Shown: positions 1,503 through 12,366 of the stretch, piece after piece
Numbering within the stretch: position 1 is the stretch's first letter
Layout of the letters: the number at the start of each line of letters is the position of its first letter
Program-made: the position numbers and the translations under genes
Assembly (NCBI GenBank): GCA_964016885.1
Contig: OZ024745.1
Span: forward strand, 112,468,001-112,532,000
Direction: 5' to 3'
Source: Eledone cirrhosa
Lineage: Eukaryota
DNA length: 64,000 nucleotides
The notes under the pieces: model-generated
What the model saw: the letters and a program-made list of their open reading frames with translations, nothing else
Told to the model about the DNA's origin: nothing
Databases searched by the model: none

Positions 1503-1703
1503 TGATTTCTAGTATAGGCACAAGGGGAGGGGGGAGTCGATTAAATCGACCCCAGTACGTTACTGGTGCTATATTTTATCGACCTCGTAAGGATGAAAGG
1601 CAAAGTTAACCTCGGCGGGATTTGAACCCAGACCGTAAAGGGACGTAACTCTATGCTGCAAAGCAGGGTGTCCAACTCTCTACCTATACTGCCAATCCAC
1701 CAT
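1503..1703 (-). mobile_element. SINE family 1 (long form with GTCGATTTAATCGAC insert)
   Basis: Same head and body plus an extra hairpin/C-rich segment. Lies head-to-tail with the previous copy. Confidence 0.85.
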
Positions 1704-1844
1704 ACTTTTCTTCATGGCATTAATAATGGAAAAGACATCCATGAGCAAAGTCATTCTAGCCGTGACCATCTCGTCGTTTCAGATGTAATTTATCTCGTAC
1801 TACATAAACCAATAACCGCTACTTTATTATTTTCCAGAGAGATC

Positions 1845-5869: not shown

Positions 5870-6030
5870 GTGGGGATAAAGGTATGGCATGGAGAGGTAC
5901 ATATTGACCCTTTAAAAAAAACATCAATGTTGCTGCCACAAGGAAAGAAATCGTTTGGCAGTTTGTTCCATTGAGATGCGGTTCTGGGAATGAAACTGTT
6001 TCCATGAAATGTATAATTAGTCCAAGCCAA
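5870..6030 (-). mobile_element. 3' remnant of a CR1/L2/Jockey-group LINE
   Basis: Translates NSFIPRTASQWNKLPNDFFP...DVFFK, matching the typical SF.PRT...WN.LP C-terminal motif of these RT ORFs. Confidence 0.6.
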
Positions 6031-9256: not shown

Positions 9257-9289
<33 letters not shown>

Positions 9290-9348
9290 ATCTGTATATA
9301 TACATATATATATATATATCTGTATATATACATATATATATATATATC

Positions 9349-9453
<105 letters not shown>

Positions 9454-9454
9454 C

Positions 9455-9505
<51 letters not shown>

Positions 9506-9665
9506 CTGTATATATACATATATATGTATATATATGTATATATATATATATATCTGTGTATATACATATATATATATATATATGTAATATATTATAAATA
9601 TAGTTATATATATATATATGTATATGTATATATGTATATATATGTATATATATAAGTATAATATA

Positions 9666-9800
9666 AGATCAAAAGATGGTTAAAAGAGTTCCATGTATTT
9701 TATTATGCGCATTTCAAAAACAAATATCATCCCATGATGATATTTGTTTTTGAAATGCGCATAATAAAATACATGGAACTCTTTTAACCATCTTTTGATC

Positions 9801-9801
<1 letters not shown>
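9666..9801. repeat. Perfect 66-bp-arm palindrome derived from the PLE 3' end at 9978-10047
   Basis: Arms 9666-9731 and 9736-9801 with a 4-nt loop CCAT, identical to the HHR helix II loop. Confidence 0.95.
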
Positions 9802-9897
<96 letters not shown>

Positions 9898-10007
9898 GTA
9901 TATATATAAATATATAGTTATATATATATATGTATATGTATATATGTATATATATGTATATATATAAGTATAATATAAGATCAAAAGATGGTTAAAAGAG
10001 TTCCATG

Positions 10008-10078
10008 TATTTTATTATGCGCATTTCAAAAACAAATATCATCATGGGATGATATTTGCGTTCTCATCAGATAAAATA
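10008..10078 (-). ncRNA. Type I hammerhead ribozyme
   Basis: TATTTTAT-CTGATGA-GAACGCAAATATCATC(CCAT)GATGATATTTGTTTTT-GAAA-TGCGCA-TA-ATAAAATA. Perfect 8-bp helix I, long helix II, palindromic minimal helix III. Confidence 0.9.
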
Positions 10079-11018
10079 GGGAGACATGATATGAAGCTTA
10101 AAAACACTTGCGAGCAGTGAAGTGTTAAATCCACATATGAAAAATAAAATAAGATGGATATATCAGATTGGGGAAAAAAAAAAAAAGAAGGAAGGGGGAA
10201 GGAAAACGTAAGGAAGAGGAAGAAAGAAAATAAAGGATGACGGGGGAGGAGGAGTATAAGAAGGAAGGATTAGAGAGGAGGAGAAATGAGTGAGAGAGAG
10301 AGAGATACTGTCTCACAGAGAAAAATAAAAAAAAACCGTTGTAAGATAATACATAATTTTTTTTTAAATTTTGAAATTAAAAGTTAATGAGGTTTATGAA
10401 TGGTGATGTTTATGATTAAAGGAATTAAGAATAGTATTTATTTAAGGTTTATATATTGAAGGGTTTAATAATATGTGCGAAAAGGAATTTATTAATATGT
10501 ATTATTAAAATTAAAATATTAAGGAGATAAGGTGAATGAAGAAGAGATTAAATGAATTATGAACTTAGAGCAATTAGTTAGGGTCTAAGTTTGTTTCTAT
10601 GTATTGTAATATGAAAAAGTAAATAATAGGTTTAATACGAGCACGGAAGGAGAGAAGAAAGAAGAAAATTTAAGGAAGAAAAAATATATAACGTAAAAAA
10701 AAAAATATGTTGACAAAATTTACTAATGGTAATATTAGTATATATTAAAAATATAGTTTGTATGGCCAAGAATATAAGGAAAATGCTAATAATATGAATT
10801 AAGAAGTAATTGAGAAGTAAAAGTTACAGATTAAAGATTAGAAATTAAAAAAGAAAAAAGGAAAATAAGAAAAAAGGATGAAAAAGAAGAAAAATAGGGG
10901 ACCGCTAACGACATAGAATGAGTAAATTGTATAATATAATATACTGAAATAAGGTAGAAAGATGGGTATATTTGTAAAAGATATAAAAGCGTTTGAGAAA
11001 AAGAATATTTAAAACTAA

Positions 11019-11600
11019 TTAGGTAGTGAGATAATAGCTGTATACTTTATGGAAAGTTCTATGGGATTTATGCAAGCAGAGCGAAAATAAATCCGTACGT
11101 CTATTTATTATAGAATTAAAATTAGAGATAATGGTAAATTTCTCGGCTAGGCAGAGATTACATGTTCTGGATAGGGAAGAATTCTGGTAAGGAGAGGCGT
11201 TGCAAACCTTCCTCCAAGAAATGTTGTAGTTAATATTTTTGTTTTTTAAGGACCATATGAGTTCTGAGAGTGCCGTGTTAGTTCTTGTAAGTTGGTATTT
11301 AAAAGACGAATTGTGATTATAAAATCTTGCTTTAAAGGAAGTTGAAGTGGAACAAAAATAGGTAAAAGAATTAGTACCAGTTATAACCTTACATTCATAC
11401 ACTAAATTTTTATCAAGACATTGGTTATTAAGAGGACATTTAGTTCTAACAGGGCAATTACAATTACGATTAGAGAAATTACCAGAGTTATTAACAAGTG
11501 ACCTAGTATTATTTATAGAAGGAATTGGATTGGAGAAGTTATTTACGATAGGTGCTAAAGTTTCCTGATTTACATTGGTGTTATGAACATTTGACAAAGT
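11019..11600 (-). pseudogene. PLE GIY-YIG endonuclease fragment (CNC..CPL..C linker, possibly Naiad-like)
   Basis: CNCPVRTKCPLNNQCLDKNLVY...TYFCST...FKARFYNH...LSELIWSLK...CNLCLAEK. The YIG motif is decayed to YFC. Confidence 0.8.
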
Positions 11601-11619
11601 TAATATATATATATTTATA

Positions 11620-11757
11620 ACGAAGGAGGTGTGGTAAGAAACCAGATGGACCATAACGCACCAGAGTACTCAATACTTAGGGTAGTATAGTGGGTAATAG
11701 TCCAGAAATAGCCGTCGAAAAGGTTTGAGCTCTGCCGTCGAGGTTAAACATTTCCCT
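11620..11757. mobile_element. PLE-like terminal repeat family A: inverted tail plus one palindrome arm
   Basis: Matches 87-166, then jumps to the loop and right arm (GTCCAGAA.TAGCCGTCGAAA) of the 164-279 palindrome. Confidence 0.65.
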
Positions 11758-11789
11758 ATATATATGTATATATATATATATATATATAT

Positions 11790-12335
11790 GTCTCTGGACT
11801 CGGCATTTAATGCAGCAAATTAGATTTCTGCTTTTGCAGTTCATATTTGCATTTGGGAATATTTTTCCAGTTTTTGTGTTCATATATTGACCAGTATGTA
11901 TGAACTGACATGTGCCACATCGACTACCATTGCATTTAGATACAGTGAATGATTGGTCTTTGTTGTTAAGGTAACATTTTGCCTTTGTTAGTAATTGCTT
12001 CAAACGGTCTGTGATTAAACCTTTTAATTCATTATTTTGTGCAATGATCGATAGGTTTGCTTTGGCAGTGTTGAAGATATTCTGGTGACATGGGTTGTGT
12101 GTCATTATAAATGGTATGACCAGTTCTTGGTTTCTTCTTCCTTGGGTCATCCTAAGTTGTTGTATAGGTATTTTTATAGCCCGCTGTATGCCATTTTCTA
12201 TAAGTAGAGATGGTTTTTTTGTTTGAGCAAAAATTCTTGTTTGAGCAAAATTTCTCTCAGTTCTGTTAGGCGTTTGTTTCTGGTATTTGTATCTTCTACA
12301 ATGGTACAAATTCTTCTGGCTAGGCAGTATGGGAT
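11790..12335 (-). pseudogene. Second PLE fragment: linker and start of GIY-YIG
   Basis: IPFIMTHNP...KCNGSRCGTCQFI...MNCKSRNLICCIKC, typical of the PLE zinc-finger linker preceding GIY. Bounded by (TA)n. Confidence 0.75.
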
Positions 12336-12366
12336 GTTATATGTATATATATATATATGTTATATA

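What the first reader, a model, noticed from the sequence alone, without database searches (positions are those of the whole stretch)
9590..10078. Perfect palindrome turns exactly in the loop of hammerhead helix II
Seen: 9666-9801 is a perfect 66-bp-arm palindrome of the PLE 3' end. Its 4-nt loop (CCAT) is the helix II loop of the intact HHR 300 bp away. The CUGAUGA half is replaced by a mirror copy of the GAAA half. The upstream TA-rich flank is also duplicated (9590-9665 versus 9905-9977). Established: PLE insertions often carry inverted terminal segments. Inference: nascent cDNA stalls after copying helix II, snaps back and self-primes, so the ribozyme stem doubles as a DNA primer and sets the inversion point.
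Basis: partly seen in the sequence, partly recalled or inferred. Interest (0 to 1): 0.75.

Follow-up and report, generated by a model that had tools for sequence, protein, structure and literature searches.

The report
Mirror-image stub of a Penelope retroelement
This perfect DNA mirror is two back-to-back copies of the tail end of a very common Penelope-type jumping gene, joined at the hairpin of its hammerhead-like motif; the same joint recurs at 47 places in this genome and likely forms when two DNA copies of the element's RNA pair at that hairpin, a variant of a scar already known for these elements.

Summary
Window 9666-9801 is a perfect palindrome with 66-nt arms and a CCAT centre. Its arms equal the last 66 nt of a Penelope-like element (PLE) whose intact end, with a minimal hammerhead-like motif, lies at 9978-10082 on the minus strand. 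The flank is duplicated too.

It is not a one-off. The same centre occurs at 47 places in the 3-Gb genome, and the opposite mirror (CUGAUGA half) at none. Both arms of a locus share variants, so each palindrome was made anew.

- 43 of 47 palindromes carry the element's ~97-nt "tail" at exactly one end (0 at both).
- The 4-nt loop sides with the tail-less arm in 26 and the tailed arm in 17, which is about random.

I infer two separately primed cDNAs that pair through the self-complementary helix II and leave a mismatched loop.

Helix II is a minor hotspot: a palindrome centred on CATATG about 95 nt further in occurs at 905 places.

Inverted truncated copies, one-sided tails and junction palindromes of PLEs are published. 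This scan reached the same reading on other DNA of this genome (e1-9592274).

The window's copy is atypical: no tail, and a long copy beside it. Its exact origin stays open.

The parts
9540..9665 (.). TA-rich flank, copy 1 (D1). It ends in ...AAGTATAATATA next to the arm.
   Evidence: Aligns with 9850-9977 and differs mainly by TA indels. The 35-nt string spanning the last 22 nt of flank and the first 13 nt of the arm is exact only at these two places in the genome.
9666..9731 (-). Arm a: the last 66 nt (q1-66) of the PLE, element sense on the minus strand. It holds the GAAA half of the hammerhead-like motif and the 3' strand of helix II.
   Evidence: It is 100% identical to 9978-10043.
9732..9735 (+). 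Centre CCAT, the helix II loop in the orientation of arm b.
   Evidence: The intact copy reads ATGG on the + strand at 10044-10047.
9736..9801 (+). Arm b: the same 66 nt, element sense on the plus strand. Its 3' end abuts (TA)n directly, a tail-less 'A-type' end.
   Evidence: Comparable A-type ends without the AATATA motif are seen at other loci.
9802..9849 (.). (TA)n spacer between arm b and the second copy of the flank.
   Evidence: It aligns with any TA tract, so its origin cannot be told.
9850..9977 (.). TA-rich flank, copy 2 (D2).
9978..10082 (-). Intact 3' end with the minimal hammerhead-like motif. Helix I 10071-10078 / 10008-10015; CUGAUGA 10064-10070; helix II 10048-10058 / 10033-10043 with loop 10044-10047; GAAA 10024-10027; U-GCGC-A 10018-10023. 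The predicted cut lies between 10016 and 10015.
   Evidence: Sequence and fold. In 90 distinct copies the core is CTGATGA in 71 and GAAA in 83, with the helices kept. No Rfam hit.
9978..11602 (-). Long 5'-truncated PLE copy c: a 3' UTR of about 1 kb plus the C-terminal part of the ORF (open frame 11019-11669, GIY-YIG-like by eye).
   Evidence: Homology to other copies ends near 11602. The 216-aa frame matches 150 scored places at 85-96% identity, some inside open frames of up to 768 aa. Full units are seen in L117 and L118.

Best explanation
The palindrome is a head-to-head pair of 5'-truncated copies of the 3' end of a very abundant Penelope-like retroelement, and joints of this kind were most likely made during target-primed reverse transcription, when two cDNAs primed from the two strands of a (TA)n target paired with each other through the self-complementary helix II sequence.

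Shown:
- The family has about 23,700 3' ends in the genome.
- About a third of a sample of those ends sit in head-to-head pairs.
- The helix-II-centred joint recurs at 47 places, always mirroring the 3' (GAAA) half.
- The two arms of a locus share variants.
- Exactly one end carries the ~97-nt tail that lies between the element's two insertion end points.
- Loop orientation is about random with respect to that end.

Inferred:
- One cDNA starts at the inner start site and the other at the outer one, perhaps on a single RNA.
- Both are antisense, so they can anneal only at self-complementary stretches. These are the 11+11-nt helix II stem or, far more often, CATATG at the likely RNA 5' end.
- Each cDNA is then extended on the other, which would leave an ATGG/ATGG mismatch that repair or replication settles either way.

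The window's own copy is atypical. It has no tail, a long copy lies 176 bp away, and a flank of at least 125 nt is duplicated. It may instead have arisen by a second insertion beside copy c, or by DNA-level fold-back repair at c's hairpin.
For: - Recurrence and polarity: the centre pattern is found at 47 places (22 exact, 11 with 1 mismatch, 14 with 2; reversed control 0). The mirror of the CUGAUGA half has 0 true cases; all 21 hits have 2 mismatches and read as ordinary unmirrored variants.
- De novo origin: in 36 usable loci, 39 differences from the window arm are shared by both arms and 78 sit in one arm only. No one-arm variant recurs in 3 or more loci. 29 of the 30 palindromes with 1.5-kb flanks stand alone.
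- One-tail rule: 43 of 47 have one tailed and one tail-less end, 4 are tail-less at both ends (the window plus 3 degenerate loci), and 0 are tailed at both. Of 14 other pairs, 12 have one tail, 2 have none and 0 have two. Among 37 ends read by eye, 11 are tailed, so independent choice would give many symmetric pairs.
- Loop orientation: it sides with the tail-less arm in 26 and the tailed arm in 17. Among loci with at least 72 of 74 identical arm positions the split is 7:10.
- The longer arm is tailed in 4 and tail-less in 4 asymmetric pairs.
- Loop positions carry 11 of 39 mismatches (p=0.0018). 6 of the 11 variant loops are mosaics of ATGG and CCAT.
- Published biochemistry: a PLE protein cleaves and extends both target strands and starts at two adjacent internal sites that explain the tail (PMC11167929, main text read).
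Against: - No direct evidence for two cDNAs or for a heteroduplex. Everything is inferred from end products.
- 26:17 is compatible with random but not tightly so.
- The mosaic-loop excess (6 of 11 against about a third expected) is not significant. Loop hypermutability in cruciforms could explain the extra loop changes.
- Why exactly one start site of each kind is used is unexplained.
- The window's own palindrome breaks the one-tail rule and has a duplicated flank, which the model does not predict.
- Target-site duplications cannot be read, because both flanks are (TA)n.
- The sample of junction positions is small: 16 pairs from the first 100 listed ends.
Confidence: 0.5

Rival explanations
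1. Intramolecular snap-back. One nascent cDNA, after copying helix II, would fold back on itself, prime on its own stem and copy itself back to the target.
For: The axis is exactly a natural 11-bp hairpin. Only the 3' half is mirrored. Arms are identical at birth. Short fold-back additions appear at other junctions, for example CAA before CATATG in L101. Self-priming was proposed from junction palindromes in Adineta vaga PLEs (PMC3846280, passages read).
Against: Snap-back predicts symmetric ends, or a loop always on the primary arm if the return strand stops at the inner site. Observed are one tail in 43 of 47, none with two, and loop orientation 26:17. The longer arm is not tied to the tailed end, 4:4.
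Confidence: 0.2
2. DNA-level origin. A break or stalled fork at the helix II hairpin of an existing copy would fold back and prime on itself, followed by a switch in the (TA)n tract (fold-back repair or inverted triplication). This is offered mainly for the window's own copy.
For: In the window the arm is present three times with the middle copy inverted. All three are 100% identical. A flank of at least 125 nt is duplicated with it, and its junction with the arm is exact at no other place in the genome. This layout is unique among the palindromes: 1 of the 30 examined with 1.5-kb flanks. It resembles the inverted triplications ascribed to template switching at short inverted repeats (PMC4689423 and PMC10766183, search listing only).
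Against: For the class: the one-sided tail, arm ends at the element's insertion end points, and 47 against 0 polarity are not expected from DNA breakage at a hairpin. For the window: the palindrome stops exactly at the element's end. The sequence after arm b is not the reverse complement of the flank, and one search is uninformative. Arm b has an ordinary tail-less retro-copy end.
Confidence: 0.2
3. The palindromic unit would itself be a small non-autonomous element that is transcribed and copied as a whole.
For: 47 copies share one layout of about 250 bp, lying in (TA)n.
Against: Variants private to a locus are present in both arms. One-arm variants never recur in 3 or more loci. Both loop orientations occur within each sub-lineage. 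A master copied as a whole would pass on its arm differences and one loop orientation.
Confidence: 0.03
4. Assembly or sequencing artefact, such as a chimeric fold-back read.
For: Palindromes in TA-rich DNA are hard to assemble. No read set bridged the locus.
Against: The same joint is found at 47 places on many contigs, with arms diverged to different degrees and different flanks. A 39-nt unitig from a run labelled as a different organism, from another study, covers 9724-9762 without a difference, but it is too short to count as bridging.
Confidence: 0.02

Closest known systems
Endonuclease-bearing Penelope-like element insertions with an inverted 5'-truncated copy, pseudo-LTR and one-sided 'tail' (Craig et al. 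2021, PMC8557442; Arkhipova et al. 2013, PMC3846280)
   Same: Head-to-head inverted truncated copies, a tail at one end only, a (TA)n target, a hammerhead-like motif in the pLTR, and palindromes at the inverted junction. All were seen here and are described in passages read.
   Different: Here both copies are cut down to 66-74 nt, so the whole insertion is a stub of about 250 bp. The tail is about 97 nt rather than 30-40. The junction palindrome is identified as helix II of the ribozyme motif. I found no paper stating that in two full-text searches.
In vitro behaviour of the Anolis PLE PAc (Frangieh et al. 2024, PMC11167929)
   Same: Both target strands are cleaved and extended, and two adjacent internal RT start sites account for the tail. 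This fits the two end types and the twin-cDNA reading.
   Different: That work did not report head-to-head products or junction positions. The rule of one tailed and one tail-less end and the random loop orientation are genomic inferences made here.
L1 twin priming (5'-inverted L1 insertions)
   Same: The second target strand primes a second cDNA, and the two are joined by microhomology.
   Different: In L1 the second primer anneals far upstream on the RNA, so the two parts are different sequence and no palindrome forms. Here both cDNAs would start at the 3' end and copy the same stretch. The L1 mechanism is recalled; only a search listing was seen.
Palindrome formation from short inverted repeats at breaks or forks (fold-back repair, ODIRA-type inverted triplication)
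   Same: A short natural hairpin becomes the axis of a long palindrome. The window's three-copy layout with the middle copy inverted looks like this.
   Different: Such DNA-level events have no polarity with respect to an RNA 3' end and give no one-sided tail. The class of 47 has both.
Minimal and dimeric hammerheads of metazoan PLEs (Cervera and De la Pena 2014, PMC4209133)
   Same: A type-I layout with a long helix II. Helix III is reduced to one pair capped by a palindromic loop (U-GCGC-A). An extra nucleotide follows CUGAUGA.
   Different: The base of helix II is G.U/A-U rather than the conserved G10.1-C11.1 pair. There is no Rfam hit, and cleavage is untested.

Membership tests
Penelope-like element (EN+) | Single ORF with a reverse transcriptase domain | tested here: inconclusive
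   ORFs of 715 and 760 aa in L118 and L117 have RT-like motifs by eye (FDIASYY, YRDDGL, FLDISL). The local Pfam copy gives no hit and PDB sequences give none. Homologues at E 1e-114 carry PF26215 or PF28514. Atlas neighbours carry HTH_animal, DUF8422, GIY-YIG and RVT_1, which is a lead only.
Penelope-like element (EN+) | C-terminal GIY-YIG endonuclease | tested here: inconclusive
   LVYECK...FTYFGSTS...RFYNH is seen by eye at the C-terminus. Pfam gives no hit. GIY-YIG is carried by 26-50% of members of neighbouring Atlas clusters.
Penelope-like element (EN+) | Partial-tandem layout giving pseudo-LTRs | tested here: met
   In L118 a 3'-end copy (q504 to q1, 1736-2250) is followed by the tail, 5' UTR, ORF and 3' UTR up to a second q1 at 5923. 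The unit is 3,673 bp.
Penelope-like element (EN+) | Inverted 5'-truncated copies, with the optional tail at one end | tested here: met
   16 head-to-head pairs among the first 100 listed ends. One tail only in 43 of 47 and in 12 of 14 pairs.
Penelope-like element (EN+) | AT-rich or (TA)n insertion sites | tested here: met
   Nearly all ends abut (TA)n.
Hammerhead ribozyme (PLE type, small palindromic helix III) | Core CUGAUGA ... GAAA, with a cleavage triplet after helix III | tested here: met
   Sequence at 10008-10078, minus strand. CTGATGA in 71 of 90 and GAAA in 83 of 90 distinct copies.
Hammerhead ribozyme (PLE type, small palindromic helix III) | Helices I and II able to pair; helix III of one pair with a palindromic loop | tested here: met
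   The fold shows helix I (8 bp) and helix II (11 bp plus a weak base). Pairs are kept in 83-90 of 90 copies, but only through one-sided (wobble) changes, so there is no compensatory support. U-GCGC-A is read from the sequence.
Hammerhead ribozyme (PLE type, small palindromic helix III) | Conserved G10.1-C11.1 pair | tested here: not met
   The position next to the core pairs G.U or A-U (57 GT, 25 AT and 5 GC of 90).
Hammerhead ribozyme (PLE type, small palindromic helix III) | Match to a curated hammerhead model | tested here: not met
   No Rfam hammerhead family at gathering score or at E<=10 on 9560-10200.
Hammerhead ribozyme (PLE type, small palindromic helix III) | Self-cleavage | not testable with these tools
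   One 38-nt arm (L007, q3-40) ends near the predicted cut at q38|39. That is a single case, not evidence.

The most novel reading that the evidence does not exclude
These stubs are a fossil record of the still-unknown Penelope integration step. Exactly one tailed and one tail-less end per insertion, together with a loop whose orientation is random (sometimes mosaic), would mean three things. Both target strands prime cDNA on one RNA, using each of its two start sites once. The two same-sense cDNAs are joined wherever the RNA's own structure makes them self-complementary. The joint passes through a mismatched heteroduplex. Ribozyme helix II would then have a second, DNA-level role as a cDNA-cDNA pairing site.
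Probability: 0.35. Interest if true: 0.6.

Novelty: new member of a known kind. Interest (0 to 1): 0.4.

Why it matters
How Penelope-like elements integrate, and why they leave tandem and inverted structures with a one-sided tail, is described as undefined in the literature read here (PMC8557442). With about 23,700 ends in this genome, the family offers hundreds of natural products that can be scored.

The one-tail rule and the random loop orientation argue for two cDNAs rather than one folded cDNA, and that can be tested directly in the published in vitro system. For annotation, these 250-bp perfect hairpins should not be mistaken for miRNA precursors: Rfam miRNA models score up to 77.7 bits on this one (below their gathering scores), a match that reflects only the long hairpin.

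For the specific claim that the ribozyme stem sets the inversion point, the answer is mostly no. Helix II is one self-complementary site among several, and a minor one.

Tried and rejected
- Rfam, whole window at gathering score and 9560-10200 at E<=10: no hammerhead family. The top hits are miRNA models that match only the long hairpin, all below their gathering scores.
- Pfam on the window's two ORFs, on the 760-aa ORF and on four homologues: no family in the local copy. PDB sequence search: nothing.
- Public reads: runs X1-X4 are kept as unitigs of 127 nt or less. None bridges the palindrome or the flank, so the locus could be neither confirmed nor refuted.
- Asking whether the TA tract after arm b is an inverted copy of the flank: TA-rich DNA aligns with everything, so this is uninformative.
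- Target-site duplications: unreadable, because both flanks are (TA)n.
- A full genome-wide map of junction positions was not possible, since only the first 100 places of a pattern search are listed. I used 16 pairs plus 2.
- A search for a source copy carrying the window's flank: the 35-nt flank-and-arm string is exact only at the window's two sites, so 3' transduction from elsewhere is not supported.
- First BLAST of the loci without a low-complexity filter: swamped by TA matches.
- Notes of this scan near this place: none.

Full report
**1. What is in the window**

Window 9666-9801 is a perfect palindrome: two 66-nt arms around CCAT (9732-9735). Complementarity stops at 9665/9802. A 50-nt arm string occurs three times in the window without mismatch (9666+, 9801-, 9978+) and never in 100 shuffles.

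The third copy continues on the + strand as CAAATATCATC ATGG GATGATATTTG CGTTC TCATCAG ATAAAATA GGG. On the minus strand 10082-9978 reads as follows:
- helix I (UAUUUUAU)
- CUGAUGA
- a long helix II (an 11-bp perfect stem with loop CCAU, on a weak G.U/A-U base)
- GAAA
- a one-pair helix III capped by GCGC
- UA|A
- the helix I partner (AUAAAAUA)

The fold agrees, at -18.7 kcal/mol with z = -2.9. In what follows q1 is window 9978, the last base of the shared end. The helix II loop is q67-70 and the predicted cut is q38|39.

The loop in the palindrome has the orientation of the right arm, because the intact copy reads ATGG on the + strand. The flank duplication also runs further than stated, about 9540-9731 against 9850-10043.

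Rfam reports no hammerhead at gathering score or at E<=10. What it does report are miRNA models matching the long hairpin, all below their gathering scores.

**2. What element this is**

The 163 nt from 9978 match 40 scored places at 96-100% identity, out of 232 candidates. A 26-nt end string with up to one mismatch occurs 23,674 times.

Copy c in the window runs to about 11602 and ends in an open frame (11019-11669, minus strand) with a GIY-YIG-like motif by eye. That frame matches 150 scored places, some within open frames of up to 768 aa.

L118 shows a full unit of 3,673 bp: a pLTR copy ending at q1, then about 97 nt, 5' UTR, a 715-aa ORF and a 3' UTR back to q1.

Pfam (local copy) and PDB sequences give no hit. 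Homologues at E 1e-114 carry PF26215 or PF28514. Atlas neighbours carry HTH_animal, DUF8422, GIY-YIG and RVT_1, which is a lead rather than a test.

Together with the pLTR layout, the (TA)n targets, the hammerhead-like motif and the tail, this is a Penelope-like element in all structural respects. The protein domains are not formally confirmed.

**3. Two kinds of 3' end**

Ends are of two kinds:
- A: (TA)n, often AATATA, then q1.
- B: (TA)n, then a fixed stretch of about 97 nt, then q1.

In L118 the 97 nt are simply what follows q1 in the tandem unit. This matches the 'tail' of PLEs. Frangieh et al. (PMC11167929, main text read) explain the tail by two adjacent internal start sites of reverse transcription. 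They also show that the PLE protein cleaves and extends both target strands.

**4. The palindrome recurs**

The 38-nt centre occurs at 47 places (22 exact including the window, 11 with one mismatch, 14 with two; reversed control 0). A pattern mirroring the other (CUGAUGA) half has no true case. Its 21 hits all have two mismatches and read as ordinary unmirrored copies.

Of the 30 palindromes fetched with 1.5-kb flanks, 29 stand alone. Only the window has a long copy nearby.

In 36 usable loci, 39 differences from the window arm are shared by both arms and 78 are in one arm only. No one-arm variant recurs in three or more loci. Seven of these loci have no one-arm difference and others have up to five.

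So these palindromes were made repeatedly over time, each from one template. They were not copied from a palindromic master.

**5. Test of snap-back**

All 47 were classified:
- 43 have one A end and one B end.
- 4 are A/A: the window, plus three degenerate loci with 30-41 of 74 arm positions matching.
- None is B/B.

The loop belongs to the A arm in 26 and to the B arm in 17. Among loci with at least 72 of 74 identical arm positions the split is 7 against 10.

A single cDNA that folds back and copies itself gives symmetric ends. If the return strand stopped at the inner site, the loop would always sit on the tailed arm. Neither is seen.

In 14 other head-to-head pairs, 12 are A/B, 2 are A/A and 0 are B/B. 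Four more pairs, read by eye, are all A/B. In the eight asymmetric A/B pairs the longer arm is A in four and B in four.

Among 37 ends, read by eye, 11 are B. Independent choice of end type would therefore give many A/A and some B/B pairs.

These results fit two separately primed antisense cDNAs, one from each start site. Such cDNAs can pair only at self-complementary sequence, and each is then extended on the other. At helix II this would leave ATGG opposite ATGG, to be settled either way.

Loop positions carry 11 of 39 mismatches against 10.5% expected (p=0.0018). Six of 11 variant loops are ATGG/CCAT mosaics. This is suggestive only: a third would be mosaic-like by chance, and loops of cruciforms may simply mutate more.

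**6. Is helix II the inversion point?**

Among the first 100 listed ends, 32 lie in 16 head-to-head pairs. Mapped arm ends:

| Pair | Arm ends (q) |
|---|---|
| L092 | 161 / 163 |
| L093 | 161 / 162 |
| L094 | 90 / 101 |
| L095 | 110 / 161 |
| L096 | 29 / 95 |
| L097 | 127 / 161 |
| L098 | 172 / 162 |
| L099 | 162 / 162 |
| L100 | 163 / 73 |
| L101 | 68 / 162 |
| L102 | 102 / 92 |
| L103 | 160 / 139 |
| L031 | helix II palindrome |
| L106-L108 | three long pairs |

The dominant end is q161-163, where the sense strand begins CATATG. A natural 34-nt palindrome centred there occurs at 905 places, about 19 times the 47 at helix II.

Long copies read through this point and have a TATA-like ATATATCC about 25 nt upstream. 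So q161-163 is plausibly the start of pLTR transcripts, and the 161-nt arms would be full-length copies of short RNAs. This is inference.

Two further arms end at q68 and q73 without a mirror partner (L101, L100), so some stalling in the hairpin is possible. Helix II is thus a real but secondary junction site. Its use is explained by self-complementarity rather than by anything specific to the ribozyme.

**7. The window's own copy**

It is the only clear A/A case, and the only one of the 30 examined with 1.5-kb flanks that has a long copy beside it. Arms a and b and q1-66 of copy c are identical. At least 125 nt of flank is duplicated with arm a. The 35-nt string across the flank-arm junction is exact at no other place in the genome.

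The palindrome stops exactly at the element's end. Arm b has an ordinary tail-less end of a kind seen elsewhere.

Two readings remain:
- A new tail-less cDNA primed in the (TA)n beside c, joined at c's helix II, with a long duplication of the target.
- DNA-level fold-back at c's hairpin, followed by a switch in the TA tract.

I could not separate them, and read sets do not bridge the locus.

**8. Prior knowledge**

- Craig et al. 2021 (PMC8557442, passages read) describe inverted 5'-truncated copies, the one-sided tail and (TA)n bias, and call the mechanism undefined.
- Arkhipova et al. 2013 (PMC3846280, passages read) report palindromes at inverted pLTR junctions and propose self-priming.
- Cervera and De la Pena 2014 (PMC4209133, passages read) describe PLE hammerheads with a long helix II and a small palindromic helix III.

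Two full-text searches found no paper that names helix II as the junction. Only the held library was searched.

Notes of this scan on other DNA of the same genome (e1-9592274) reached the same reading. I tested it here independently, but it is not independent evidence.

**9. Verdict**

The single-molecule snap-back and the idea that the ribozyme stem sets the inversion point are not supported. This is a new member of a known kind of PLE scar, with some value as a natural record of the integration mechanism.

Noticed in passing
window 10138-10143; L092, L093, L099 and 905 genomic places: Most short copies of the family begin at CATATG (q158-163), about 60 nt upstream of the hammerhead-like motif, with a TATA-like ATATATCC about 25 nt further upstream in long copies. 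A perfect 34-nt palindrome centred on this CATATG occurs at 905 places. It looks like the start of pLTR transcripts and the main inversion point of the family.
   Followed up: partly
the 47 helix-II palindromes (L031-L060, L119-L135): The 4 loop positions carry 11 of 39 mismatches in the 38-nt centre (p=0.0018). Six of 11 variant loops are mosaics of ATGG and CCAT.
   Followed up: partly
L105 (G000:C1:107844560-107845090): A variant palindrome of the same family whose centre is shortened to ...ATCATCATGATGAT..., as if both arms ended inside the loop and overlapped by AT.
   Followed up: no
L017 about 1380-1470; L004 about 1690-1790 (minus strand); window 11616-11757: Other repeat families also occur as short palindromic stubs next to (TA)n. 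One has 28-nt arms around CGAA within ...GCCGTCGAAACGGC.... The window has a related short element between two TA tracts, just beyond the 5' end of copy c.
   Followed up: no
window 11677-12336 (minus strand): A second open frame of 219 aa with a cysteine-rich, GIY-YIG-like look (…CNGSRCGTCQF…) lies directly beside copy c. It is probably the end of a different PLE family. Pfam gave no hit.
   Followed up: partly
L038, L041, L052, L002, L060 flanks: Several insertions sit in the (TA)n end of another repeat ending ...GGACGTAAAATGA(TGA)n(TA)n. In L038 that repeat is present on both sides in inverted orientation, so the stub is nested inside an older inverted pair.
   Followed up: no
L007 109-146: One inverted arm is only 38 nt long (q3-40) and ends within two bases of the predicted ribozyme cut (q38|39). 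This is a single case and could be chance.
   Followed up: no
window 9664-9801: Rfam miRNA models (MIR4371 at 77.7 bits, mir-76, mir-982, mir-90) match the palindrome below their gathering scores. The match is only to a long hairpin, but such stubs could be miscalled as miRNA precursors.
   Followed up: yes
window 9260-9600: The TA tract left of the palindrome is a minisatellite with a CTGTATATATAC motif, mostly every 28 nt, not a pure (TA)n.
   Followed up: no
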